A DNA stretch of 12,579 nucleotides, from IMG/VR virus record IMGVR_UViG_3300014625_000033. The stretch is one strand, 5' to 3'. The notes beneath the pieces were generated by a model. It did not search any database and was not told the origin of the DNA. It saw only the letters and a program-made list of their open reading frames with translations. This DNA is from a virus. Its lineage: Duplodnaviria; Heunggongvirae; Uroviricota; Caudoviricetes. Shown piece after piece: positions 1 through 12,579 of this stretch. The position numbers and the translations under genes were made by a program. How positions within the stretch are numbered: position 1 is the first letter of the stretch; each line of letters begins with the position of its first letter.

Positions 1-174
1 CTAGATTAAATCAATCTTGATATCATAGCTTTCAAGACCAGTCATTTTTTCCCGTGCAGTAAACTGGATACTGGTAACTTCTTTCCCGGTCTTTTTCTTA
101 AGCTCAATGATTTTTTTTGTTATATATTCAGAAATATCTGCTTCTGTTTTTGTTTTTAACTCTTCAATGTTCAT
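1..174 (-). CDS. gnsB: GnsA/GnsB family small protein, 57 aa (MNIEELKTKTEADISEYI...FTAREKMTGLESYDIKIDLI)
   Basis: Translation closely resembles the E. coli GnsA/GnsB sequence as I recall it. Tandem ATGs at 177 and 174; SD AAGAGGA just upstream; stop TAG at 3..1. The ORF-track upstream extension is probably not translated. Confidence 0.75.
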   Translation of the reverse strand: MNIEELKTKTEADISEYITKKIIELKKKTGKEVTSIQFTAREKMTGLESYDIKIDLI

Positions 175-346
175 CATTTCCTCTTTTAGTCTGTTATGAC
201 TGTCCTGGTACACAGTAGTGTCAATTATATGGAGCAAACGTATAAAAGATAAGATGAAACATCGCAATAATCAACATACGACGGTCTAAATTTCACACAA
301 ACAGATAAAGATGATTATCATTTATTATCAATGCATTAGAATCAAA

Positions 347-577
347 TCAATTCAAGAGTCTCATTGCTGCTTCCAGAATTTCTTCTGAAGTTACATGTCG
401 ATCCGCTGCTACATAAATGACTTTATGATCTCCGGTCAGAGATGGAAACCCTGCAGCCATTACAGTGAGGTGTGTTGTTTCGCCATTTGGATATTCACGC
501 ATGATGGTGTTAACTCCGGTCATCACTGGCACTACCATTGCTGGTTCAGAGTTAAAAAAAACTATTATTTTTTTCAT
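347..577 (-). CDS. ynfN: Small prophage protein, 76 aa from ATG at 577 (MKKIIVFFNSEPAMVVPVMTGV...); probable YnfN-like gene by synteny
   Basis: Intact ORF between gnsB and cspI, as in K-12 Qin. The ORF-track start at 616 is GTG; the first ATG is at 577. Naming rests on synteny only; the K-12 protein is shorter (51 aa as I recall). Confidence 0.5.
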   Translation of the reverse strand: MKKIIVFFNSEPAMVVPVMTGVNTIMREYPNGETTHLTVMAAGFPSLTGDHKVIYVAADRHVTSEEILEAAMRLLN

Positions 578-620
578 AATGTTACCGTAATATGTGAGTA
601 TCCATCGACTAGACACTAAG

Positions 621-641
621 CAAAAAAGCTCCCGAAGGAGC
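621..641 (-). terminator. Intrinsic terminator-like hairpin GCTCC-cgaa-GGAGC, followed on the minus strand by a T6 run
   Basis: Perfect 5-bp GC-rich stem with 4-nt loop; plus strand reads caaaaaaGCTCCcgaaGGAGCcttcatttt, so it is flanked by A/T runs in both orientations. Lies about 200 nt downstream of the cspI stop and directly abuts the ynfN-like start. Confidence 0.5.
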
Positions 642-848
642 CTTCATTTTCACTTTCTTAAATCTAACGACAGATGGCTAACATTTAAGTATTGTGAAAT
701 ATTATCAAATGTAATCATCATTGATTTACAAAAGATACATTTTGCCCCGAAAGGATTTCTGTCAGAAACATCAAAAGATGATGTTCTATACTGAGAACCA
801 TGGCAACACGGGCATCTAAAGTGAATATGGTTTGTAATATTTTCTACC

Positions 849-1061
849 TCAAAGTGCCACTACATGAACAGCTGCAGGGCCTTTAGGTCCGTTCTCAATA
901 CCAAATTCGACTTCCTGATTCTCAGTTAACGTTTTGAAATCGTTGCTCTGAATAGCTGAGAAATGCACAAACACATCTTTGCTACCATCTTTCGGCGTGA
1001 TGAAACCAAAACCTTTTTCAGGGTTAAACCATTTCACTAAACCAGTCATTTTGTTAGACAT
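849..1061 (-). CDS. cspI: Cold-shock protein CspI (CspA family, S1-like cold-shock domain), 70 aa
   Basis: Translation [70 protein letters not shown] carries the RNP1/RNP2 motifs (KGFGFI, VFVHF) and matches CspI as I recall it. SD AAGG upstream of the tandem ATGs. Confidence 0.9.
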
Positions 1062-1204
1062 CATTATTACCTTTTGAAGAAGTTAGCCCTTGGGCAGAAT
1101 GGTCCGAAAAAAAATATCAGAAAGAAAAACCAACAAGGAAATCTCAAGAGGTACAAATAATAAAATTATAACAATGACTGCTTCAGATAATTTTGTAACA
1201 AACC

Positions 1205-1241
1205 AGAACACCATTAACGCATGATTAACCAACCATAGCAA
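1205..1241 (-). promoter_or_regulatory. Candidate cspA-type promoter for cspI: -35 TTGCTA (1241..1236), 17-bp spacer, -10 GTTAAT (1218..1213), AT-rich UP-like region upstream; predicts a 5'UTR of about 145 nt
   Basis: Minus-strand read: TTGCTAtggttggttaatcatgcGTTAAT. This resembles the cspA promoter architecture (TTGCAT / CTTAAT), and the predicted leader length matches the long leaders typical of cold-shock genes. Confidence 0.4.
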
Positions 1242-1424
1242 GGATTACTTTTGTAAAGAAAAACACACGAATGAAACAATAGCTTTATTTATTAATAAAA
1301 CGTGTCATTCTGTCTAATGACCTTTTATCTTACCCTTAAGATTTCAAGGATTTTGACTCATGGAAGAGTCCTTTTTATTTAAATTTCACATTCAGCGCTA
1401 AAAATAATCCGATTTAATATTAAT

Positions 1425-2448
<1,024 letters not shown>

Positions 2449-2452
<4 letters not shown>

Positions 2453-2760
2453 AGATATTTATGATGAGGACGCTCGTGCTTATTGGCAGGATTTTCAATC
2501 TTAAAGGAGTACTGATGCTGCAGATAAGACTCAACTTTTTCTGACAATTTTTCTGCTACTTCCAGGAAGACTTGCCGGACGCTCATTCTGGCTGCTGCCT
2601 CATAAAACTCCAGCGCAGCTCCTTCAACACGGTCCATGGCGACATCCAGGCCAAAAATTTCACCGTCAAAGCGTTCTTTGTCCTGTAAGGCTACAGTTAC
2701 CGTAACTTTATTCTCAAAATTACGGACTCCTTTCACAACCAGTTCATAGTCTTGAGTCAT
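2449..2760 (-). CDS. ydfR: YdfR-like protein (DUF1327) sitting between holin and endolysin, 103 aa
   Basis: Intact ORF with strong SD (GAGGAGAG) 4 nt after the holin stop; position matches K-12 Qin ydfR. Function unknown. Confidence 0.7.
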
Positions 2761-2764
2761 TGGA

Positions 2765-2980
2765 TTACTCTCCTCTCGCAGCCTTACGCCTGTCTTCTTT
2801 AATCTTGAAATAAAGATTTGTCAGATACGTCAGCATGCCAAATACCAGACTACCCAATACACCTATTGCCGCCCACTGTGAGGGCGTGACTTTATCGAGC
2901 AACTGTAAAAACCAGTAGCCAGCACTGCCTGCAGAGGTGCTGTAGGCGATGCCCGTTGTTAACTTATCCATGGATTTCAT
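2765..2980 (-). CDS. essQ: Class II pinholin (phage 21 S21-like) with dual-start motif MKSM, 71/68 aa
   Basis: [71 protein letters not shown] has two TM segments and matches S21 as I recall it. ATGs at 2980 and 2971; strong SD GGAGGTGAGG. The ORF-track upstream extension is not used. Confidence 0.85.
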
Positions 2981-3070
2981 AGCCTCACCTCCGCAGATAA
3001 CGGATGGTGTACACGGTTTGGTTCGAAGAAGGAAAGAAGTTACATTAGCGTAAGGCCCGAACATCTATTC

Positions 3071-3101
3071 AAAAAGAAAAACGCCAGCAATTATTCTGGC
3101 G
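3071..3101 (-). terminator. Intrinsic terminator downstream of the AraC-family gene: hairpin CGCCAG-(8 nt)-CTGGCG followed on the minus strand by a T-rich run (TTTTTCTTTTT)
   Basis: Plus strand reads aaaaagaaaaaCGCCAGcaattattCTGGCG. It sits between the cargo gene and the holin start. Confidence 0.5.
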
Positions 3102-3170
3102 TAGCTAAAAATATCGTATAATCTTACACTTCAAAAAATAACTTTATAAAATACCATCACATCATATCTT

Positions 3171-3884
3171 CTAAGAAAATCTTGATAAATATTGGTGCGG
3201 AGGCACACCAAAATATCCTCTAAAAACACTTACAAAATATGATGCATTGTCATACCCGCATATTCCCGCCACCTTGCCGACAGTATGGTTACTGTAGATC
3301 AATAATCTTTGCGCCATCATCATTCGTTCTTCAAGAATTAATTTACTAAACGATAATCCTTCGTCTTTTAATTTTCTTTTTAACAAACTCTCGCTCATAT
3401 ATAATCTTGAAGATATATCACAAAGTCTCCATGACGCAGAGATATCCGAGTGAATAATAGCCTTAACTTTACAACCTAAGCTATTAAGACTTCCGAACAA
3501 AAAACTTTGCACTATTTTCTCTGAAGATAAGACAGCAAGACATGCAAGTGATATTTGATTTCTAACTACATCCACGGTTTTGCTATCACAATTCAAGCAT
3601 GCAACCAAGTTCTTTAACAATGAAAAATCTTCACATTCTACTATCAAGTATGACGGATAAAACCTTCTTACAGAAAAAGGTGAGAGTGTGTAGTTTTTAA
3701 AGAAATCATTAACTGTTTTCTCCTCAACATCTACGATCATTAGATGATCTGTATTTGACGAAAAAAGATCTTTTAAATTGTATTCAATGAGGACAGCATT
3801 TCCTTTTTTAAACAAAATATCTTCTTTACCAATTCGGACACCAAACGAGTTCAACACCAAAATGATAGAACATATGTATGGCAT
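3171..3884 (-). CDS. AraC/XylS-family transcriptional regulator (AppY/Rns-like short type), 237 aa from ATG at 3884; markedly AT-rich cargo gene
   Basis: C-terminal double HTH typical of AraC/XylS (…SESLLKRKLKDEGLSFSKLILEERMMMAQRLL…VGKVAGICGYDNASYFVSVFRGYFGVPPHQYLSRF). SD AGGTGGA precedes the ATG at 3884; the ORF-track start at 3893 is GTG. Base composition is far lower in GC than the flanking phage genes. Confidence 0.8.
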   Translation of the reverse strand: MPYICSIILVLNSFGVRIGKEDILFKKGNAVLIEYNLKDLFSSNTDHLMIVDVEEKTVNDFFKNYTLSPFSVRRFYPSYLIVECEDFSLLKNLVACLNCDSKTVDVVRNQISLACLAVLSSEKIVQSFLFGSLNSLGCKVKAIIHSDISASWRLCDISSRLYMSESLLKRKLKDEGLSFSKLILEERMMMAQRLLIYSNHTVGKVAGICGYDNASYFVSVFRGYFGVPPHQYLSRFS

Positions 3885-4290
3885 ATTATCCACCTGATAT
3901 CATTGGGGTTACACCAGGTAAGTATAGGTGGAAAATCAATATTCGCCAGTTCAACAATAAGGAAAATCTCATTGCATCACAACTATAAAACCATGTGTTT
4001 AACTCACAAAAAACAAATCATTAAACTAATCTGTTATATTATAATAGCTGCGTGCAATAATAATATTATATGCTCTTAATATTCACTTGAAATATCTTCA
4101 TATAAAAACAGATTGAATAAAATCTTTTGGGGCTGGTATGTTTACCAACATTAAATTGCATCTCAATGTTTTCTTTAGCGTGAACAGGATTTTTATAAAA
4201 ACTGACACTATGAGCATCATAGCGTAGTTTTTACGATTGTAAATATCCTGCATACAGGAACTCATCACTTTCAGATGATATCGCATACAG

Positions 4291-5250
4291 TTAATTCACC
4301 ATCAGTCTTAGAGCCAGTTCTTCCGGATAGGGATCGAAGTAGTTCTGTGTAAGCAAGTAATCATTAGGATACTCACCCAGATAATGCTTCAGCAGAGTCA
4401 ACGGCGCAAGAAGAGGCAATGTGCCAAAGCGATAGTTAAGTATAACCTCGCTCAACTCTTTACGCTGGCGTGTACTTAAGTAATTACTAAAATACCCCTG
4501 TATATGCATCAGCACATTCGTGTGATTTTTACGTGATGCTGGTTTTCTGAGAATCGCCATCAGATTATCACGATACACCTCAAAGTATGATTCAAGGTCC
4601 GCCCACTCGTGTATTGCAGCCACAAATGGTCCCATATCTTTATAGCCTGCCTGGCTATGCGCCAACAACTGAAGCTTATAACGACTATGAAAAGCTAATA
4701 ACTCTCTTCTTGATAATTTCTCCTTGTAAAGGTGATTGAGCTCATGCAAAGCAAAAACTCTTTCAATAAAATTCTCACGAAGCACTGGATCATGTAATCG
4801 CCCATCCTCTTCAACCGGTAGCCAGGAAAACTTTTCCATCAAAGTGCTCGTAAATAGTCCCACTCCATCTTTACGACCTCGATTACCATTTTCATCATAG
4901 ACACGCACGCGCTCCATGCCACAGCTGGGAGATTTAGCACAAACCACAAACCCCGATACATCCTTTAATTTGTCCATATAAGAACGACTAAACTCTGTCA
5001 TTCTCTCTGTCACATCCTCATTCTGGTCGTGGCTGAAACACATCCGTATATTTCCTTGCTTCGAGCGCACAAGTCGTAGAGCAGGACGCGGAACTGGCAG
5101 CCCTATAGCCATTTCCGGACATACTGGTCTGAATGTTACCCATTCCACTAATTTGTCCATTAAAAAGTCATCTCTTTTGTGACCACCATCAAAACGAACA
5201 GCAGAACCGCCCAAACAACCGCTGATCCCAATCACAGGTTTTTTTATCAT
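4291..5250 (-). CDS. DUF523 (TudS-like, putative [4Fe-4S] thio-nucleobase desulfurase fold) fused to DUF1722 (YbgA-like), 319 aa
   Basis: N-terminus MIKKPVIGISGCLGGSAVRFDGGHK with further conserved Cys in PVCPEM and VVCAKSPSCG matches the DUF523/TudS pattern; the C-terminal half resembles DUF1722/YbgA. Strong SD GGGGGAGGA before the ATG at 5250. Confidence 0.75.
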   Translation of the reverse strand: MIKKPVIGISGCLGGSAVRFDGGHKRDDFLMDKLVEWVTFRPVCPEMAIGLPVPRPALRLVRSKQGNIRMCFSHDQNEDVTERMTEFSRSYMDKLKDVSGFVVCAKSPSCGMERVRVYDENGNRGRKDGVGLFTSTLMEKFSWLPVEEDGRLHDPVLRENFIERVFALHELNHLYKEKLSRRELLAFHSRYKLQLLAHSQAGYKDMGPFVAAIHEWADLESYFEVYRDNLMAILRKPASRKNHTNVLMHIQGYFSNYLSTRQRKELSEVILNYRFGTLPLLAPLTLLKHYLGEYPNDYLLTQNYFDPYPEELALRLMVN

Positions 5251-5442
5251 TTCCTCCCCCTTGACTAATTCATTAACACATAAACTTTGTAGTGCACGGA
5301 CTAAATTGCCTTTCTGGCTTCATCACTGACAATTTTTCTGTTATTGACTATTCCTAATATAGTAGGAAAGTTCTTTAAGTGATCGGTCGTACTCATCTAT
5401 CTTTCATACTTACTCTCAACTATCAAAAGTACAGGATTTATT

Positions 5443-5967
5443 ATGAAGTTATGGCCTGTGTTGACTGGCATTGCACTCTCTTTCACTCTTATAGCATGTA
5501 AGGCCCCGACACCACCTAAAGGTGTGCAGCCGATTACAAATTTTGACGCCAACCGCTACCTCGGAAAATGGTATGAAATAGCTCGCCTCGAGAACTGGTT
5601 CGAACGTGGTCTGGAACAGGTCAGCGCTACTTATGAAAAACGGAACGACGGAGGGATTCGCGTACTTAACCGTGGATACGATCCAACGAAAAACAAATGG
5701 AGCGAGAGCGAAGGTAAAGCATACTTTACTGGAGATACTAAAACTGCAGCGTTGAAAGTTTCGTTTTTTGGCCCCTTCTATGGTGGCTATAATGTAATCA
5801 AACTGGATGATGAGTATAAGTATGCTCTTGTCAGTGGTCCGAACAGAGAATACCTATGGATTCTGGCAAGGACCCAAACTATTCCAGATAATGTAAAAGC
5901 AGACTATGTGCGTACCGCTCAAAAGTTGGGATTCAATGTCAATGAACTATTATGGGTTAAACAATAA
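5443..5967 (+). CDS. blc: Bacterial lipocalin (Blc family) outer-membrane lipoprotein, 174 aa
   Basis: Lipoprotein signal with lipobox LIAC, then lipocalin motifs (FDANRYLGKWYEIARLENWFERG; KVSFFGPFYGGYNVIKLD; YLWILARTQ), nearly collinear with E. coli Blc as I recall it. SD AGGA 7 nt upstream. Transcribed opposite to all flanking phage genes. Confidence 0.85.
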   Translation: MKLWPVLTGIALSFTLIACKAPTPPKGVQPITNFDANRYLGKWYEIARLENWFERGLEQVSATYEKRNDGGIRVLNRGYDPTKNKWSESEGKAYFTGDTKTAALKVSFFGPFYGGYNVIKLDDEYKYALVSGPNREYLWILARTQTIPDNVKADYVRTAQKLGFNVNELLWVKQ

Positions 5968-5995
5968 AATCCCCACCCGAAATGATACTTATTAG

Positions 5996-6022
5996 AAAAA
6001 AACCAGCCTTTGGGGAGGCTGG
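5996..6022 (-). terminator. Intrinsic terminator (candidate tR') downstream of the Q gene: minus strand CCAGCC-tccccaaa-GGCTGG followed by T7
   Basis: Plus strand reads aaaaaaaCCAGCCtttggggAGGCTGG. It lies about 100 nt downstream of the Q stop, where lambdoid phages place PR'/qut/tR'. It also lies just downstream of the convergent blc-like gene. Confidence 0.55.
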
Positions 6023-6122
6023 CTAAATCAGGAAACAAGCTGTTATATGATAATAACTACGTTGCGATTCCAACATTTAAAATGTTAGACTAATGAAAAT
6101 CAGACAGCAACTTTTCCTTTAA
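6023..6122 (-). promoter_or_regulatory. Candidate late promoter PR' / qut region between Q and the terminator
   Basis: Positional inference from lambdoid architecture. Minus strand contains TTGGAA-(17-18 nt)-CATATA-like elements, but I could not pick a single convincing -35/-10 pair. Confidence 0.3.
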
Positions 6123-6500
6123 TTATTTCGAACAATCAGCATCCATCTCCAATCGGAGATCCAACACCATCAGCATGCCCTCCACTACGCCCTCAGCTTT
6201 CTGGAGCATCCTGCCAACCCAACAATCAGATCGCCCATGCTTACGTGCAAGCGCCATAAAAGTCATGCCGCCGACATAATAGTCCACCAATAAATCATGT
6301 AAATCGCTGTTGTTTTTTTTCAGGCGAGCCATACATTCACAAATGATCATCGCGTCATCGTCACAGCATTGCGGACGAGATCTTACTTTTGAAGGAATTA
6401 ATCCCTTAAAACCGGCGGCAATGGACGACCAGGTCACATCTTCATGATTATTAGCCGCCCATGCCCCCCAACGCTCAAGAACCATCTGAATATCACGCAT
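6123..6500 (-). CDS. quuQ: Late-gene antiterminator Q (phage 82 / QuuD family), 125 aa from ATG at 6500
   Basis: [63 protein letters not shown]... matches the QuuD/QuuQ sequence as I recall it, including the Cys-rich zinc motif. SD GGAG precedes the ATG at 6500; the ORF-track start at 6515 is TTG. Confidence 0.85.
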
Positions 6501-6517
6501 CAACTTACTCCACAAAA

Positions 6518-7522
6518 TTAGGCCAGCACACCAATTGCCAGCGCGCGATCGATAAATCGAAAAATCAGCTCCAGTTGGGAGCCATACTTCTCTTCAAATG
6601 CCACGGTATCCGTATGCAACTCGTCGTGATGCTTTCTGCACAAAGGCAAAACAAAGAGATCATGTGCTTTGGTTCCCATTCCGCCCTGCCCGTGACCAAT
6701 CAGATGATGCGGATCGTCGGCTGGCATACCGCAGCAAGCACACGGCTGTGTCTTAACCCAGCGTGTGTATTTCTCCTTAACCCACCGGTGACGTTTAGGC
6801 AGCTTCATGAAAGATTCCGGAGACTCTGGATCAACGGTGATGCTTACCACCGTCTTTTCCTGTGATGGGTTTTGTTGCTGGTGGGCGTGAGGCAACGGTG
6901 CAAGATTTTTTGTGCGCTGTTTCAATATGCTGGTGGCGGTCTGCTCTCCCGGTACGATGTCGCTTTCGCGGTACACCGAGCAGATTTTTTCCGCTGGTAA
7001 TCCCAGCGAGCGACGTAATACCGCTTCCGGTAGCGCGTCCGCCAGCTGATTGCGGACCGCCCACCAGGATAATTCAGCCAGAGATAATTCACGCTCCTGC
7101 GTACCGCTTATTGCGTGACCGATGACGTCAATCATCCATGCTGACAGGTTTTGATGAGCAAGTTGCTCGAGTGATTCGGATGTCTGGTCACGCAGCTGGT
7201 TGTCGCAGTGCCAGCACAACACCATTGCGCCGGTACCATATCGGTGAATAACGGTTTCGCTGTGATGATAATCGCCGTGTGGCCACTGGCAGGATTTAAT
7301 ATGGCGCAACAGCCAGTCAGACAATGCACCAGCACCACCAGCAGCACGAATTACCCGTGCGTTACTGAAAAACGGCAGCAATGTTTTGTCTTCCACCAGC
7401 GGCTGGCGAACGGCAGGAACGACCCCGGACGGCAGATTACGCATGCTTTTCGGTTCCGGCTCCACCAGTACCCGGGTATTGTGGAATACCGGCATGGATT
7501 CACGGCCCGGCTTAACGACCAC
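6518..7522 (-). CDS. ydfU: YdfU-like DUF968 protein with C-terminal HNH-like Cys/His motif, 334 aa (GTG at 7522; alternative ATG at 7495)
   Basis: C-terminus [22 protein letters not shown]...[10 protein letters not shown] has CxxC...HH...C..HH spacing typical of HNH nucleases. Position between rem and Q matches K-12 Qin. Confidence 0.75.
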
Positions 7523-7772
7523 CAGCCCGAGTTCCGGTATCCCTGGTGTCGATAGCCTTCCAGCGTTCGAATATCTTCACTCGATTAACGCTAAGCGCTC
7601 GCTGATCAACCGCGCCACCTTCATATGTGACACGCTGAACATCGATGTTCGGGCGCTCTTTCAAAGCCCAGAATGCTTCAGTGATTAATATCGTCGCCTG
7701 CTCCTGTGTCATTCCTGGTCGACATATCCAGGCATCCAGAGCCTCACGAGCCTGTTCAGGAGTGATTTTCAT
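7512..7772 (-). CDS. rem: Rem-like small protein, 86 aa
   Basis: ATG at 7772; translation MKITPEQAREALDAWICRPGMTQEQATILITEAFWALKERPNIDVQRVTYEGG... Synteny with K-12 Qin rem. It overlaps both neighbours (dicC-like 3' end and ydfU 5' end). Confidence 0.6.
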   Translation of the reverse strand: MKITPEQAREALDAWICRPGMTQEQATILITEAFWALKERPNIDVQRVTYEGGAVDQRALSVNRVKIFERWKAIDTRDTGTRAGGR

Positions 7773-7983
7773 TGTTCAACCGCCCCGCCCGCTTCGTCTT
7801 ACGATATTCGTCATAAACTTTGGGATCATACTGAAGCTCCCCGCCAGATGCCTCCTGTAGACGCATCGCGCGACCTTCAGGAACCAGTATCCCCCAAGCA
7901 GCAACACTTGCCAGTCTCACTCCTGCGGCATTGGCAAGCTTTGTTTTGCTGCCAAAAAAAGTAATTGCGTCAACTTTAAGCAT
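7756..7983 (-). CDS. dicC: Cro-like regulator DicC (YdaS/DicC family), 75 aa from ATG at 7983
   Basis: Small ORF divergent from the dicA-like repressor across an operator-containing intergenic region; SD AGAGGGGG; length about 76 aa as for DicC. Identification is by position, size and partial sequence recall. Confidence 0.7.
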   Translation of the reverse strand: MLKVDAITFFGSKTKLANAAGVRLASVAAWGILVPEGRAMRLQEASGGELQYDPKVYDEYRKTKRAGRLNNENHS

Positions 7984-7996
7984 CAAAGCCCCCTCT

Positions 7997-8014
7997 TGTT
8001 AGACTTTTCTAACA
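7997..8014. promoter_or_regulatory. Operator-like palindrome TGTTAGA-cttt-TCTAACA in the dicC/dicA divergent promoter region
   Basis: Perfect 7-bp inverted repeat with 4-bp spacer, 14 nt from the dicC-like start codon; the same half-sites recur downstream of dicA (8507..8526). Confidence 0.55.
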
Positions 8015-8063
8015 TTATTGTGCGCGGGATACCTAAGTCAAGAAAAATTAGAATTACCTAACT

Positions 8064-8471
8064 ATGGATACAAGAACCCTAGGCCAGCGAGTTCTGGCGC
8101 GACGAAAAGAATTACGCTTAACACAACGAGAAGCTGCGCGCCTCGCTGGAGTTGCTCACGTCACAATTTCACAATGGGAAAGAGACGAAACCCAGCCAGT
8201 CGGAAAACGATTGTTTGCTTTAGCGGATGCTCTGAAGTGCTCACCTACATGGCTAATGTTTGGTGACGAAGACAAGGCACCAGTGCCTGCACAAGAACTT
8301 CATGTGGAAACAGAGCTAACTCCCAACCACAAAGAATTGATCGAATTATTCGATGCTCTTCCATCTTCCGAGCAGGAAGCCTTGCTGTCTGAAATGCGCG
8401 CAAGAGTAGAAAACTTCAACAAACTCTTCGAAGAAATGCTTAAAGCGCGTAAAAATAAATCAATAAAATAA
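8064..8471 (+). CDS. dicA: DicA-type prophage repressor (HTH_XRE / cI-like), 135 aa
   Basis: N-terminal HTH (LTQREAARLAGVAHVTISQWER) and the segment KRLFALADALKCSPTWLMFGDEDK...NFNKLFEEMLKAR resemble DicA as I recall it. Weak or absent SD suggests a near-leaderless mRNA, like lambda cI from PRM. Confidence 0.85.
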   Translation: MDTRTLGQRVLARRKELRLTQREAARLAGVAHVTISQWERDETQPVGKRLFALADALKCSPTWLMFGDEDKAPVPAQELHVETELTPNHKELIELFDALPSSEQEALLSEMRARVENFNKLFEEMLKARKNKSIK

Positions 8472-8506
8472 CATTCTTTTCAAGTGATTAGTTGCGCCCA
8501 CTCTTT

Positions 8507-8526
8507 TTGTTAGATCAATCTAACAA
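8507..8526. promoter_or_regulatory. Second operator-like palindrome TTGTTAGA-tcaa-TCTAACAA upstream of the ydfA-dicB operon; degenerate third copy at about 8544..8560 (TGTTAG-N5-TCTAAA)
   Basis: 8-bp perfect inverted repeat with the same half-site as 7997..8014, located between the dicA stop and ydfA. Consistent with repressor control of the dicB operon promoter. Confidence 0.55.
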
Positions 8527-8639
8527 AAAACACTTGCCTCTCGTGTTAGGTTATTCTAAATTACTTTCCATCAAGACACCGCACGGTGTTCTCAGCAAAC
8601 AGTTCCGCGACCCCGGCGTTAAGGGGAAATGAGGTCAGC

Positions 8640-8792
8640 ATGGATACTATCGATCTTGGCAACAGCGAATCTCTGGTATGTGGCGTGTTCCCCAACCAGG
8701 ACGGTACGTTCACCGCGATGACATATACCAAAAGCAAAACGTTTAAAACCGAATCTGGCGCGCGTTGCTGGTTAGCCAGAAACACTGACTGA
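8640..8792 (+). CDS. ydfA: YdfA-like small protein (DUF1391), 50 aa from ATG at 8640
   Basis: MDTIDLGNSESLVCGVFPNQDGTFTAMTYTKSKTFKTESGARCWLARNTD; SD GAGG 5 nt upstream. The ORF-track start at 8586 is GTG and lacks an SD. Confidence 0.7.
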   Translation: MDTIDLGNSESLVCGVFPNQDGTFTAMTYTKSKTFKTESGARCWLARNTD

Positions 8793-9613: not shown

Positions 9614-9671
9614 TTTCTGGTGACGTTTGGCGGTATCAGTTTTACTCCGTGACTGCTCTGCCGCCGTTTTT
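9614..9671 (+). ncRNA. dicF: DicF small regulatory RNA (Hfq-dependent, represses ftsZ translation)
   Basis: Sequence TTTCTGGTGACGTTTGGCGGTATCAGTTTTACTCCGTGACTGCTCTGCCGCCGTTTTT matches the E. coli DicF sequence I recall almost base for base, including the terminal hairpin and U-tract. Confidence 0.9.
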
Positions 9672-9840
9672 AAAGTGAATTTTGTGATGCGGTGAATGCG
9701 GCTAAGCGCACGCGGAACAGTTAAAACCAAAAACAGTGTTATGGGTGGATTCTCTGTATCCGGCGTTAATTGTTAACTGGTTAACGTCACCTGGAGGCAC
9801 CAGGCACTGCATCACAAAATTCATTGTTGAGGACGCGATA

Positions 9841-10029
9841 ATGAAAACGTTATTACCAAACGTTAATACGTCTGAAGGTTGTTTTGAAATTGGTGTCACT
9901 ATCAGTAACCCTGTATTTACTGAAGATGCCATTAACAAGAGAAAACAAGAACGGGAGCTATTAAATAAAATATGCATTGTTTCAATGCTGGCTCGTTTAC
10001 GTCTGATGCCAAAAGGATGTGCACAATGA
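9841..10029 (+). CDS. dicB: Cell-division inhibitor DicB, 62 aa
   Basis: MKTLLPNVNTSEGCFEIGVTISNPVFTEDAINKRKQERELLNKICIVSMLARLRLMPKGCAQ matches DicB as I recall it. SD GAGGA 6 nt upstream. The ORF-track extension upstream (from 9736) is leader, not coding. Confidence 0.9.
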   Translation: MKTLLPNVNTSEGCFEIGVTISNPVFTEDAINKRKQERELLNKICIVSMLARLRLMPKGCAQ

Positions 10030-10217
10030 ATTCAGCATTTGCGCTTGTTCTGACAGTTTTTCTTGTTTCCGGAGAGCCAGTTGATATTGCAGTCAGTGTT
10101 CACAGGACAATGCAGGAGTGTATGACTGCAGCAACCGAACAGAAAATTCCCGGTAACTGTTACCCGGTCGATAAAGTTATTCACCAGGATAATATCGAAA
10201 TCCCGGCAGGTCTTTAA
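10026..10217 (+). CDS. ydfD: YdfD small membrane protein (reported lysis-inducing protein of Qin), 63 aa
   Basis: MNSAFALVLTVFLVSGEPVDIAVSVHRTMQECMTAATEQKIPGNCYPVDKVIHQDNIEIPAGL; N-terminal TM segment. Its ATG overlaps the dicB stop (ATGA). Confidence 0.85.
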   Translation: MNSAFALVLTVFLVSGEPVDIAVSVHRTMQECMTAATEQKIPGNCYPVDKVIHQDNIEIPAGL

Positions 10218-10310: not shown

Positions 10311-10940
10311 ATGAGTAAAGTCTTTATTTGCGCCGCTATTTCTGACGAACTGGCAACAAGGGAAGAAGGCGCTGTGGCTGTAGCCACAGCCATTGAAGCT
10401 GGCGACGAACGCCGTGCTCGAGCAAAATTTCACTGGCAGTTCCTGGAACATTATCCGGCTGCTCAGGACTGCGCTTATAAATTTATTGTCTGCGAGGATA
10501 AACCTGGCATACCCCGCCCTGCCCTCGATTCATGGGATGCTGAATATATGCAGGAAAACCGCTGGGATGAGGAGTCTGCTTCTTTTGTCCCGGTTATGAC
10601 CGATGAAATCCCGTTAGATGATGCACTGTTACAATTGCGGGAATTTATCGACGAAAACTCCGGTGAATTTTTTGTTCATGTCTGGGGAAATGGAGCCAAC
10701 TTCGACAACACGATTTTGCGCCGTTCATACGAACGGCAGGGGATCCCCTGCCCGTGGCGTTACTACAACGATCGCGATGTACGCACAATCGTTGAGCTGG
10801 GGAAAGCCATAGACTTCGATGCCAGAACGGCTATTCCATTCGAAGGTGAGCGCCATAATGCACTTGATGACGCCCGTTACCAGGCAAAATACGTTTCAGC
10901 TATCTGGCAAAAACTGATCCCGAGTCAGGCTGATTCTTAA
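10311..10940 (+). CDS. ydfE: YdfE-like protein, 209 aa, with C-terminal DnaQ-like 3'-5' exonuclease-type motifs; apparently intact
   Basis: Motifs VWGNGANFDNTIL (Exo II-like N..FD) and ERHNALDDARYQAKY (Exo III-like H-x-A-L-D-D-A). No canonical N-terminal D-x-E Exo I motif was seen. Position after ydfD matches K-12 ydfE, which I recall as disrupted there. Confidence 0.7.
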   Translation: MSKVFICAAISDELATREEGAVAVATAIEAGDERRARAKFHWQFLEHYPAAQDCAYKFIVCEDKPGIPRPALDSWDAEYMQENRWDEESASFVPVMTDEIPLDDALLQLREFIDENSGEFFVHVWGNGANFDNTILRRSYERQGIPCPWRYYNDRDVRTIVELGKAIDFDARTAIPFEGERHNALDDARYQAKYVSAIWQKLIPSQADS

Positions 10941-11012: not shown

Positions 11013-11264
11013 ATGAGCGAAGTAATCATGATTGTCTCTCCCGGCAAATGGGTATCCGAAGAGCAGTTAATTGCGCTGAAAGGAATAAAAAAAGGTACGT
11101 TAAAAAAGGCCCGGGAAAAATCGTTTATGGAAGGAAGGGAATATAAGCATGTCGCTCATGACGGTATGCCATGGGATAACAGTCCATGCTTTTACAACCT
11201 GGAAGAAATTGATCGCTGGATTGAGCGCCAGGCATCAGCAAGACCAAGACGTCATCTTACTTGA
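11013..11264 (+). CDS. Excisionase-like small protein (putative Xis), 83 aa
   Basis: Small basic protein immediately upstream of and co-directional with the integrase; ends 35 nt before the int start. Assignment is positional plus general resemblance; weak SD. Confidence 0.5.
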   Translation: MSEVIMIVSPGKWVSEEQLIALKGIKKGTLKKAREKSFMEGREYKHVAHDGMPWDNSPCFYNLEEIDRWIERQASARPRRHLT

Positions 11265-11298
11265 CTAAAAGCCACACTAACTAATGAGAGAAGTTGAA

Positions 11299-12579
11299 AT
11301 GAAATATCCGACAGGCGTGGAAAACCATGGAGGGAAATTACGTATCTGGTTTGTTTATAAAGGCGTAAGAGTCAGGGAAAACCTGGGGGTTCCTGACACA
11401 GCAAAAAACAGGCGCGTTGCAGGTGAGCTACGCGCCTCTGTTTGTTACGCAATAAAAACTGGTGTTTTCGACTATGCAAAACAGTTTCCCTCCTCACGCA
11501 ATCTGGAAAAATTTGGTGAGGCCCGACAAGATTTAACCATAAAAGAACTGGCTGAAAAATTTCTGGCACTGAAAGAAACTGAAGTCGCAAAAACATCACT
11601 CAACACATACCGTGCCGTCATCAAAAATATCCTGAGCATAATCGGTGAAAAAAATCTTGCCTCATCGATTAATAAAGAAAAATTACTGGAGGTTCGTAAA
11701 GAGCTACTGACTGGATACCAGATCCCCAAAAGTAACTATATTGTTACACAACCAGGGAGATCGGCTGTAACTGTAAATAATTACATGACAAATCTTAACG
11801 CCGTGTTCCAGTTTGGTGTTGATAACGGTTACCTGGCAGATAACCCGTTTAAGGGGATCTCGCCATTAAAGGAATCAAGAACCATTCCGGATCCTCTTTC
11901 GCGGGAGGAATTCATCCGTCTTATCGATGCGTGCAGAAATCAGCAAGCCAAAAATTTATGGTGTGTTTCTGTTTATACTGGCGTTCGCCCTGGTGAGCTG
12001 TGTGCACTTGGATGGGAGGACATAGATCTGAAAAATGGAACAATGATGATCAGGAGAAATTTAGCAAAAGACCGTTTCACGGTCCCAAAAACACAGGCGG
12101 GAACCAATCGGGTCATTCATCTTATTAAGCCAGCAATCGACGCTCTCCGGAGTCAGATGACATTAACGAGACTGAGCAAAGAGCATATCATTGATGTTCA
12201 CCTCAGAGAGTATGGCAGAACAGAAAAACATAAATGCACCTTTGTTTTTCAACCTGAAGTGTCAGCGAGAGTAAAAAATTATGGTGACCATTTTACCGTT
12301 GACTCAATAAGGCAGATGTGGGACGCAGCGATAAAACGTGCCGGACTCCGCCATCGAAAATCATATCAGTCGAGACATACTTATGCCTGCTGGTCGCTGA
12401 CAGCTGGTGCTAACCCTGCATTTATAGCAAACCAGATGGGCCATGCAGATGCGCAAATGGTATTTCAGGTATACGGAAAATGGATGTCTGAAAACAATAA
12501 TGCACAGGTAGCTTTGTTAAATACACAGTTAAGCGAGTTTGCCCCAACCATGCCCCATAACGAAGCAATGAAAAATTAA
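11299..12579 (+). CDS. intQ: Phage integrase, tyrosine recombinase family (N-terminal arm-binding domain + C-terminal catalytic domain), 426 aa from ATG at 11299
   Basis: Catalytic-domain signatures are present (VYTGVRPGELCALGWEDIDL...; SRHTYACWSLTAGANPAFIANQMGHADAQMVFQVYGKW, i.e. R...HxxR...Y). SD GAGAGAAG before 11299. Stop TAA is at the last 3 nt of the window. Confidence 0.9.
   Translation: MKYPTGVENHGGKLRIWFVYKGVRVRENLGVPDTAKNRRVAGELRASVCYAIKTGVFDYAKQFPSSRNLEKFGEARQDLTIKELAEKFLALKETEVAKTSLNTYRAVIKNILSIIGEKNLASSINKEKLLEVRKELLTGYQIPKSNYIVTQPGRSAVTVNNYMTNLNAVFQFGVDNGYLADNPFKGISPLKESRTIPDPLSREEFIRLIDACRNQQAKNLWCVSVYTGVRPGELCALGWEDIDLKNGTMMIRRNLAKDRFTVPKTQAGTNRVIHLIKPAIDALRSQMTLTRLSKEHIIDVHLREYGRTEKHKCTFVFQPEVSARVKNYGDHFTVDSIRQMWDAAIKRAGLRHRKSYQSRHTYACWSLTAGANPAFIANQMGHADAQMVFQVYGKWMSENNNAQVALLNTQLSEFAPTMPHNEAMKN

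What the first reader, a model, noticed from the sequence alone, without database searches (positions are those of the whole stretch)
6518..7986. No replication module between the cro-like gene and Q; only rem and an HNH-motif DUF968 protein
In lambdoid phages the cro-to-Q interval holds cII/O/P and nin genes. Here dicC is followed directly by rem (overlapping both neighbours) and ydfU, whose C-terminus has an HNH-like CxxC/HH/CxxHH arrangement. The hokD/relBE/flxA block that I recall in K-12 Qin is also absent. This indicates a stripped, probably replication-defective prophage whose retained genes may be selected for host benefit. YdfU may be a NinG/Rap-like structure-specific nuclease.
Basis: partly seen in the sequence, partly recalled or inferred. 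Interest (0 to 1): 0.4.

Follow-up and report, generated by a model that had tools for sequence, protein, structure and literature searches.

The report
Deletion scar in Qin-like cryptic prophage
This is an E. coli Qin-type defective prophage in which one clean 4.3-4.8 kb deletion removed the replication genes, the origin and the real rem gene, leaving a truncated cII-like gene joined to a 5'-clipped, already-predicted HNH nuclease gene: ordinary prophage decay, not a new system.

Summary
The gene-content observation holds. Between dicC (7756-7986) and Q (6123-6515) there is no replication gene, and hokD, relBE and flxA are absent. One identification is wrong. The ORF at 7512-7772 is not rem. 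It is the first 78 codons of a YdaT/YdfX (cII-equivalent) gene plus 8 out-of-frame codons.

Its overlap with ydfU is a deletion scar at 7538/7539, with 2-bp 'TA' microhomology. Compared with E. coli 13C1079T and the phage HannyBb, 4773 or 4255 bp are missing. The lost stretch held the ydaT 3' part, an O-like initiator with 23-nt iterons, a Ren-like gene, hok, the true rem (the DicA antirepressor), a small ORF and the first 28 nt of ydfU.

The identical junction occurs in at least 23 independent public contigs but in none of 5426 complete E. coli genomes. Other strains carry independent deletions of the same interval.

Verdict: known kind, low interest.

The parts
8064..8471 (+). dicA, the CI-like repressor, divergent from dicC
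   Evidence: Pfam HTH_3 at 1.5e-14. It is annotated as the same protein, WP_000381212.1, in relatives.
8014..8041 (-). Sigma-70-like promoter upstream of dicC, the pR-equivalent. This is a consensus match only.
   Evidence: TTGACT-16-AATAAT, 10 of 12 matches. DicA-repressed dicC transcription is described in PMC10448788 and PMC11430063.
7756..7986 (-). dicC, the cro-like regulator, intact
   Evidence: Pfam P22_Cro at 5.1e-12. NCBIfam PRK09744 DicC scores 165.7 bits against a cutoff of 130.
7512..7772 (-). It holds codons 1-78 of a YdaT/YdfX-family (cII-equivalent) gene, then 8 codons read out of frame from the ydfU 5' region.
   Evidence: tblastn gives 97.4% identity over residues 1-78 to K-12 YdfX and to the L002 YdaT protein. 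It matches phrog_163 'CII-like' over its N-terminal part only. The precomputed Pfam assignment is YdaT_toxin.
7538..7539 (.). Deletion junction with 'TA' microhomology. It joins ydaT codon 78 to ydfU codon 10.
   Evidence: Window 1-7539 equals L002 3003-10540, and window 7538-8783 equals L002 15312-16557. The base-level junction is shown. The same breakpoints apply against phage HannyBb.
6518..7522 (-). 5'-truncated ydfU (DUF968). It lacks the first 28 nt, the native start codon and the upstream context. The first in-frame canonical start left is GTG at native codon 16.
   Evidence: Pfam DUF968 at 5.7e-77, 258 bits. phrog_96 'HNH endonuclease' at 2.6e-166. It is 100% identical at the nucleotide level to ydfU of many E. 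coli genomes up to position 7539.
6887..7522 (-). YdfU N-terminal domain (residues 1-212) with conserved C78, C103, W104 and D107 ('CWHxDN'). It has no confident match to a known fold.
6518..6841 (-). YdfU C-terminal His-Me finger (HNH) domain (residues 228-334). The motif core lies at about 6614-6748.
6123..6515 (-). Q-type antiterminator, intact
   Evidence: Pfam Phage_antitermQ at 8e-51. phrog_79.
6001..6024 (-). Intrinsic-terminator-like hairpin downstream of Q. This is a consensus match only.
   Evidence: A 9-bp stem followed by a T-run.

Best explanation
The window is a Qin-type lambdoid cryptic prophage of E. coli, integrated next to rspB. In this lineage a single illegitimate-recombination deletion joined codon 78 of the cII-equivalent gene ydaT (ydfX) to codon 10 of ydfU. 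The junction is at window 7538/7539 and has 2-bp 'TA' microhomology.

The deleted 4.3-4.8 kb carried:
- the ydaT 3' half;
- the O-like replication initiator gene, with its internal 23-nt iterons (the presumed origin);
- a Ren-like DUF977 gene;
- strain-variable cargo;
- hok;
- the true rem gene (the DicA antirepressor);
- a 92-aa ORF;
- the start of ydfU.

What remains is dicC, then an 86-aa chimeric ydaT remnant, then a 5'-clipped ydfU, then Q. All lie downstream of the DicA-repressed dicC promoter.

Inferred consequences:
- The element cannot initiate its own replication.
- It has no functional cII-type regulator. A YdaT fragment without the tetramerisation helix does not bind DNA in the studied homolog.
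- It has lost Rem-dependent derepression of DicA.
- Whether the clipped ydfU is still translated is uncertain.

YdfU itself is a two-domain phage protein from the nin region. Its C-terminal domain is a zinc-stabilised His-Me finger (HNH) nuclease module of the DUF968/DUF1364 group, structurally closest to P1 Ref and DLP12 YbcO. By inference it most likely cuts DNA during phage recombination or replication restart.

Shown here: the deletion and the gene identities. Inferred: the phenotypes and the nuclease activity.
For: Deletion and its direction:
- Collinear BLAST gives window 1-7539 = L002 3003-10540 (99.9%) and window 7538-8783 = L002 15312-16557.
- The base-level junction shows shared 'TA'.
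- The breakpoints are the same against phage HannyBb: window 6518-7539 = L012 10005-8984, and 7538-7887 = L012 4728-4379.
- Gene order in relatives is cro, CII-like, O-like, Ren-like..., hok, rem, hyp92, DUF968, Q.
- The protein encoded in the missing stretch of the relative matches phrog_391 'replication initiation O-like' at 1.5e-93.
- That gene holds 4-5 iterons of 23 nt, and the window has none.

Not an assembly artefact:
- The exact 86-aa chimeric protein is on at least 23 contigs in 29 index blocks.
- NCBI, Logan and ENA assemblies are 99.97-100% identical to the window.

Decay context:
- Strain 20AR0300 has a further 341-bp deletion between GTATCCC repeats, fusing dicC to ydfU.
- Strain O27:H7 B4103-1 has an independent ydaT'-to-hyp92' deletion and a frameshifted DUF968 gene.
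- K-12 Qin also has a truncated ydfX and no O-like gene.
- In the same allele, terminase and portal are fused into one 586-aa product.
- The nearest complete genome lacks portal, capsid and tail genes and has no replication gene anywhere in the prophage.

YdfU: evidence is.

Literature:
- Rem is the DicA antirepressor (PMC10448788).
- YdaT 1-96 is monomeric and does not bind DNA (PMC9986795).
- DUF968/YdfU is His-Me finger group 7 (PMC5714182).
Against: - The rest of the prophage in the window's own genome was seen only to 10 kb either side of the junction ORF. The full prophage was inspected only in a sister strain.
- No expression, replication or nuclease data exist for this allele.
- The apart-from-5'-end intact ydfU and Q ORFs cannot distinguish a recent neutral deletion from retention by selection.
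Confidence: 0.9

Rival explanations
1. The compact dicC-ORF-ydfU-Q arrangement is a selected, domesticated operon. The host keeps ydfU and Q for its own benefit, and the overlaps reflect translational coupling.
For: - The ydfU frame is open for 334 codons and is 100% identical to ydfU of many strains.
- Q, dicC, dicA, DicF and dicB are intact.
- The allele is found in many assemblies.
- The deletion removes everything between the dicC promoter and ydfU-Q, so both would be co-transcribed with dicC (inference).
Against: - The overlap with ydfU is created by an out-of-frame deletion. That deletion removed ydfU's start codon and its first 28 nt, a segment conserved across the family.
- No good Shine-Dalgarno sequence precedes the remaining GTG or ATG (by inspection).
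- Sister and independent alleles show continued erosion: a dicC::ydfU fusion and a frameshifted DUF968 gene.
- Near-identity to relatives gives no power to detect purifying selection.
Confidence: 0.07
2. The prophage still replicates, using replication functions located at a non-canonical place outside the window or on a helper element.
For: - The window shows only 12.6 kb.
- The structural side of this lineage's prophage was seen only as far as a terminase-portal fusion.
Against: - No replication family hit in any window ORF and no tblastn hit.
- None among the called genes within 10 kb either side in the same allele.
- None in the complete prophage of the closest complete genome, from int to ydfJ'.
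- Relatives and phages place the initiator only at the cro-cII-O position.
Confidence: 0.02
3. YdfU is a NinG/Rap orthologue, that is, the branched-DNA/Holliday-junction endonuclease of this phage group.
For: - It has the same map position as lambda ninG, in the nin region just upstream of Q.
- It belongs to the same His-Me finger superfamily (PMC5714182).
- A CxxC...H motif aligns locally.
Against: - There is no Pfam NinG hit at E <= 0.01.
- hhalign probability is 6.9% over 18 columns.
- The best structural neighbours are P1 Ref and YbcO.
- DUF968 genes frequently sit beside a RusA resolvase gene in relatives, as YbcO does in DLP12. This argues for a role distinct from junction resolution.
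Confidence: 0.1

Closest known systems
Cryptic prophage Qin (Kim) of E. coli K-12 MG1655 (b1544-b1579)
   Same: - Same chromosomal site, next to rspB/ynfP.
- Same immunity and cell-division module: dicA, dicC, ydfA, DicF, dicB, ydfD.
- ydfU lies directly upstream of Q.
- Same lysis cassette and cspI.
- It also lacks an O-like replication gene and carries a truncated ydaT (ydfX).
   Different: - K-12 keeps rem and hokD and has relBE, ydfV, flxA and ydfW/intK between ydfX and rem. The window has none of these.
- K-12 has a full-length 349-aa ydfU.
- K-12 has a different Q (ydfT, 250 aa; no tblastn match in the window).
- K-12 has cspB/cspF where the window has lipocalin, YbgA and an AraC-type gene.
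- K-12 has an IS2-disrupted ydfE and intQ, whereas the window has an intact int ORF and an in-frame-deleted exonuclease gene.
Escherichia phages HannyBb (PP925841) and mEp460_ev081 (LR597641). The latter is called a functional temperate phage carrying dicB, dicF, dicAC and rem in PMC10448788.
   Same: - 98-99% nucleotide identity to the window in ydfU, ydaT 5'/dicC, the lysis genes and the dicB region.
- The YdfU proteins are 98.5% and 86% identical.
   Different: The phage has the full order: cro, CII-like (173 aa), O-like initiator, Ren-like, methyltransferase, hok-like, rem, hyp92, full ydfU, Q. The window lacks 4255 bp of this.
DLP12 YbcO (DUF1364, PDB 3g27) and phage P1 Ref (PDB 3plw)
   Same: - It aligns to nearly all of YbcO by hhalign (probability 80%).
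- YbcO sits in the nin region upstream of rusA and Q, as DUF968 does.
- DUF968 and DUF1364 form one His-Me finger group (PMC5714182).
   Different: - YdfU has an extra N-terminal domain of about 210 aa with no confident fold match, joined by a disordered linker.
- No biochemical data exist for YdfU. From my own knowledge, Ref's nuclease activity is RecA-dependent; this was not tested for YdfU.
Lambda NinG/Rap (PF05766)
   Same: - Gene in the nin region upstream of Q.
- Member of the His-Me finger superfamily.
- Proposed recombination role (PMC5714182).
   Different: There is no detectable family-level homology. The domain architecture and size differ, at 204 versus 349 aa.

Membership tests
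Qin-type lambdoid cryptic prophage | Integrated beside rspB/ynfP, with the integrase at that end | tested here: met
   Contigs carrying the identical allele show int followed by rspB, rspA, ynfA and ynfB. The layout is the same in K-12 and in strain 20AR0300.
Qin-type lambdoid cryptic prophage | Divergent dicA/dicC immunity genes plus DicF sRNA, dicB and ydfD | tested here: met
   NCBIfam DicC scores 165.7 bits. dicA matches HTH_3. Rfam DicF scores 72.5 bits at 9615-9666. dicB and ydfD ORFs are present.
Lambdoid replication module (O-type initiator with internal iterons, with or without a helicase loader) | An initiator gene and iteron origin between cro/cII and the nin region | tested here: not met
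   No hit in the window. The iteron pattern has 0 matches. Both are present in relatives at that position.
Rem (DicA antirepressor) | Sequence similarity of ORF 7512-7772 to Rem | tested here: not met
   tblastn of K-12 Rem against the window gives no hit at E <= 0.01. The two sequences are unrelated by inspection.
YdaT / CII-equivalent regulators | N-terminal POU-like HTH region homologous to YdaT/YdfX | tested here: met
   97.4% identity over 78 aa to YdfX and to L002 YdaT. phrog_163 at 1.9e-16.
YdaT / CII-equivalent regulators | Full length, with the C-terminal helix that forms the tetramer required for DNA binding | tested here: not met
   Only 78 of 173 residues remain, followed by 8 foreign residues. 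In the studied homolog, YdaT 1-96 is monomeric and does not bind DNA (PMC9986795).
Pfam DUF968 (PF06147) | Score above the gathering threshold | tested here: met
   258 bits against a threshold of 27.8, covering residues 145-331.
His-Me finger (HNH) nucleases | Beta-beta-alpha-metal fold | tested here: met
   [not shown]
His-Me finger (HNH) nucleases | Conserved catalytic His on strand 1, a polar Asn/Asp, a His on the helix, and Cys/His zinc ligands | tested here: met
   H272 and H273 are at least 90% conserved. D288 and C261 are invariant. C264, C295, H299 and H303 are present in the window protein.
His-Me finger (HNH) nucleases | Metal-dependent nuclease activity | not testable with these tools
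   No biochemical report on YdfU was found in the library.
NinG/Rap (PF05766) | Family-level sequence homology | tested here: not met
   No Pfam NinG hit at E <= 0.01. hhalign against lambda NinG gives probability 6.9% over 18 columns.
NinG/Rap (PF05766) | Structure-specific cleavage of branched DNA | not testable with these tools
   This needs a nuclease assay.

The most novel reading that the evidence does not exclude
YdfU-family proteins could be a distinct, uncharacterised class of two-module phage nuclease. One module would be a Ref/YbcO-like HNH domain. The other would be a conserved N-terminal Cys/His domain ('CQ...CWHxDN') whose helix, beta-hairpin, helix order mirrors the C-terminal module, so it may be a degenerate second beta-beta-alpha unit used for DNA-structure or partner recognition.

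In this allele the deletion would place a truncated version, together with Q, directly under the DicA/DicC switch. The remnant would then act as a repressor-gated nuclease and late-gene (lysis and cargo) cassette.
Probability: 0.12. Interest if true: 0.4.

Novelty: already known. Interest (0 to 1): 0.12.

Why it matters
It matters little beyond annotation hygiene, in three ways.

1. The name 'rem' should not be given to this ORF. Strains with this allele lack the DicA antirepressor. They should therefore lack Rem-dependent induction of the dicBF cell-division inhibitors. This matters to anyone using such strains to study Qin regulation.

2. ydfU here is a 5'-partial gene, not an intact one.

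3. The locus is a clean, base-resolved example of stepwise decay of a lambdoid prophage. There are nested and independent deletions of the same replication interval in different E. coli lineages, while the immunity and dicBF module stays intact. This fits the published picture of prophage 'grounding' and domestication.

The one open biological question is what DUF968/YdfU nucleases do, since no biochemistry exists. That question is not specific to this window.

Tried and rejected
- **Sequence search of YdfU against PDB chains.** The single-sequence search returned only a spurious RING-finger hit at E 0.43. The 36-sequence profile found nothing.
- **hhalign of YdfU against lambda NinB/Orf.** No similarity. 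The Orf-like N-terminal domain reported for Gram-positive DUF968 proteins (PMC4118853) is not evident here.
- **PADLOC scan.** YdfU, the cargo genes and the exonuclease remnant have no defence-system hit. The P-loop ATPase of the relative gave only a weak PDC-M28C hit at 4e-5.
- **NCBIfam.** There is no model for YdfU, Q, the ydaT remnant or the O-like protein.
- **Look-up of contigs carrying the window's gnsB, to see further left.** It returned only other lineages that still have rem and full ydfU. These were useful as context but do not show the window's own structural region.
- **The idea that the compact form is ancestral.** Rejected, because both flanking genes are truncated relative to conserved full-length homologs and a phage carries the full form.

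Full report
**What the window is.** ORF listing and family scans identify a Qin-type lambdoid prophage. From right to left the genes are:

| Feature | Coordinates |
|---|---|
| integrase | 11284-12579 |
| excisionase | 11013-11264 |
| shortened exonuclease gene | 10311-10940 |
| ydfD and dicB | about 9840-10217 |
| DicF sRNA | 9615-9666 |
| ydfA-like genes | not listed |
| dicA | 8064-8471 |
| dicC | 7756-7986, minus strand |
| 86-aa ORF | 7512-7772, minus strand |
| ydfU (DUF968) | 6518-7522, minus strand |
| Q | 6123-6515, minus strand |
| low-GC cargo block (lipocalin, YbgA-type, AraC-type) | not listed |
| lysis genes | not listed |
| cspI with its cspA-type 5' leader | not listed |
| gnsB | not listed |

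Contigs that carry the identical sequence place it beside rspB/rspA/ynfA, which is the K-12 Qin site.

**Checking the observation.** No replication function is detectable anywhere in the window:
- Pfam and PHROGs scans of all sizeable ORFs gave no initiator, helicase, loader or primase.
- tblastn with lambda cII, O, P, ren, NinB and NinG found nothing. Neither did tblastn with the O-like, DUF977, P-loop and hyp92 proteins of a close relative, or with K-12 Rem, HokD, RelB, RelE, YdfV, FlxA and YdfW.

So 'no replication module' and 'no hokD/relBE/flxA' are confirmed.

**The 'rem' ORF is misidentified.**
- K-12 Rem begins MMNIEELRKIF and has no match in the window.
- The ORF at 7512-7772 begins MKITPEQAREALDAW. 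It is 97% identical over its first 78 residues to K-12 YdfX and to the 173-aa YdaT-family protein of relatives.
- It matches phrog_163 'CII-like transcriptional activator', N-terminal part only.
- Its last eight residues (TGTRAGGR) are the 5' end of ydfU read in another frame.

**A deletion scar.**
- BLAST against E. coli 13C1079T (L002) shows window 1-7539 collinear with L002 3003-10540 at 99.9%. The alignment then jumps, with window 7538-8783 matching L002 15312-16557.
- At base level the two sides share only 'TA'.
- The 4773 bp missing relative to L002 carry these genes:
  - the 3' part of ydaT;
  - a 321-aa protein matching phrog_391 'replication initiation O-like' (E 1.5e-93);
  - DUF977 ('Ren-like');
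  - a P-loop ATPase;
  - hokD;
  - rem;
  - a 92-aa ORF;
  - the first 28 nt of ydfU.
- The O-like gene contains four to five 23-nt iterons (CATCnGGnCATTTTGAnCCnATG) spaced 23-24 nt apart, the lambda-type arrangement of an origin inside the initiator gene. The pattern is absent from the window.
- The same two breakpoints appear against Escherichia phage HannyBb. That phage is annotated with the order repressor, cro, CII-like, O-like, Ren-like, methyltransferase, hok-like, 83-aa ORF, 92-aa ORF, HNH endonuclease, Q. Here 4255 bp are missing.
- Ten unrelated loci carrying the same gnsB all show DUF968 directly upstream of Q or of RusA-Q, mostly preceded by hok, Rem and the 92-aa ORF.
- The direction of the change is clear, because both flanking genes are truncated relative to conserved full-length homologs.

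**Real allele, not an artefact.**
- The exact 86-aa chimeric protein occurs on at least 23 contigs, from NCBI assemblies, Logan assemblies of sequencing runs and an ENA metagenome.
- Those loci are 99.97-100% identical to the window.
- None of 5426 complete RefSeq E. coli genomes carries the junction in one piece.
- The closest complete genome, strain 20AR0300, has the same left breakpoint plus a further 341-bp deletion between two GTATCCC repeats. This fuses dicC codon 32 in frame to ydfU.
- Strain O27:H7 B4103-1 and one other genome have an independent deletion from ydaT to the 92-aa ORF, and a frameshifted DUF968 gene.
- K-12 Qin has its own truncated ydfX and no O-like gene.
- Loss of this interval is therefore recurrent, while dicA, dicC, dicF and dicB persist.

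**Beyond the window edges.**
- In the same allele, 10 kb of flank shows host genes beyond int. On the other side it shows a 586-aa product combining terminase and portal domains, where intact relatives have 700-aa terminase, 70-aa and 502-aa portal genes.
- In the nearest complete genome the whole prophage runs from int to a truncated ydfJ. It has a terminase fragment abutting a tail-tip fragment, tail-fibre fragments and pinQ, and no replication gene.

**Consequences (inferred).**
- Without the initiator and iterons the element should be unable to replicate autonomously.
- The YdaT remnant lacks the C-terminal helix. In the studied CP-933P homolog, YdaT 1-96 is monomeric and does not bind DNA (PMC9986795).
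- Rem is the antirepressor that relieves DicA repression of dicBp; its ectopic expression gave a 165-fold increase (PMC10448788). This allele should therefore lack Rem-dependent induction. The Rem-independent routes described in that paper could remain.
- ydfU has lost its annotated start and upstream context. The first in-frame start is GTG at native codon 16, overlapping the remnant's stop, with no evident Shine-Dalgarno sequence. Translation is uncertain.
- A promoter-like site precedes dicC and a good terminator-like hairpin follows Q. These are consensus matches only.

**What YdfU is.**
- Pfam DUF968 scores 258 bits. HNHc_6 is sub-threshold and NinG is absent. PHROGs places it in phrog_96 'HNH endonuclease'.
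- 185 phage records encode a homolog.
- An alignment of 36 homologs down to 26% identity keeps C261, H272, H273, D288, P293 and K243. In the N-terminal half it keeps C78, C103, W104 and D107.
- hhalign of that profile against DLP12 YbcO (PDB 3g27) gives 80% probability over 75 columns. Against lambda NinG it gives 7%, and against NinB nothing.
- The AlphaFold model has pLDDT 87.8 and shows two domains joined by a disordered linker at residues 213-227.

**Comparison with the literature.**
- The His-Me finger classification of Jablonska et al. (PMC5714182) already names YdfU in group 7, together with DUF1364/YbcO. It proposes a recombination role 'similarly to NinG'.
- Curtis et al. (PMC4118853) noted the HNH motif of DUF968.
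- Size and gene-content diversity of Qin across strains is documented in PMC6379469.
- No biochemical study of YdfU was found.

**Verdict.** The finding is real as gene content, but it is explained by an ordinary deletion in a well-known cryptic prophage. One gene name was wrong, and the nuclease prediction is already published. Interest is low.

Noticed in passing
window 10311-10940 (+), junction near 10596-10603: The ydfE-type exonuclease gene carries an in-frame internal deletion of 1842 bp, shortening the product from 823 to 209 aa. It joins the N-terminal 97 residues to the C-terminal Rv2179c-like 3'-5' exonuclease domain. This is a second deletion scar in the same prophage.
   Followed up: partly
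window 3171-5967: A low-GC (33-35%) cargo block lies between Q and the holin gene. It holds a lipocalin (5443-5967 +), a YbgA-type 2-thiouracil desulfurase/DUF1722 protein (4291-5250 -) and an AraC-type regulator (3171-3893 -). It occupies the place of cspB/cspF in K-12 Qin. The two minus-strand genes lie on the presumed Q-dependent late transcript.
   Followed up: partly
L002 11811-13298, and the equivalent position in L018, L021 and L025: In relatives, the slot between the Ren-like gene and hok holds different large genes: an Sll1717-family P-loop ATPase, DUF7380/EMARD_N, DUF5677, or a KAP NTPase. It looks like a variable cargo hotspot, possibly for defence genes. PADLOC gave only a weak hit (PDC-M28C, 4e-5).
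   Followed up: partly
L002 14585-14716: Four to five 23-nt iterons (CATCnGGnCATTTTGAnCCnATG) lie inside the O-like initiator gene of the undeleted relative. This is the presumed replication origin of this phage group.
   Followed up: partly
L001 8535-8544 (NZ_CP195498.1); window 7537-7543 and 7887-7893: A sister strain carries a secondary 341-bp deletion between two GTATCCC repeats of the window-type allele. It produces an in-frame dicC(1-32)::ydfU fusion annotated as a 371-aa DUF968 protein, and it destroys dicC.
   Followed up: yes
L004 19321-20261 and onward: In the same allele as the window, terminase and portal domains are found in one 586-aa product, where intact relatives have separate 700-aa and 502-aa genes. 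This indicates a further deletion in the packaging module.
   Followed up: no
L006 about 5788-5917 (window 11853-11856): One assembly with an otherwise identical prophage (GCA_946062815.1) has the Qin integrase gene interrupted by another integrase-bearing element, which carries an acyltransferase, DinI and tail-fibre genes.
   Followed up: no
window 7060-7290 (YdfU residues about 78-154): The YdfU N-terminal domain has a family-wide conserved 'CQ ... LCWHxDN' motif on a beta-hairpin plus helix. It resembles a second, degenerate beta-beta-alpha unit or a zinc knuckle. No significant match was found to any solved structure or to the C-terminal domain.
   Followed up: yes
window 803-1208 (-) and 9615-9666 (+): Rfam finds a cspA-type thermoregulator leader upstream of cspI (111 bits) and an intact DicF sRNA (72.5 bits).
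   Followed up: no
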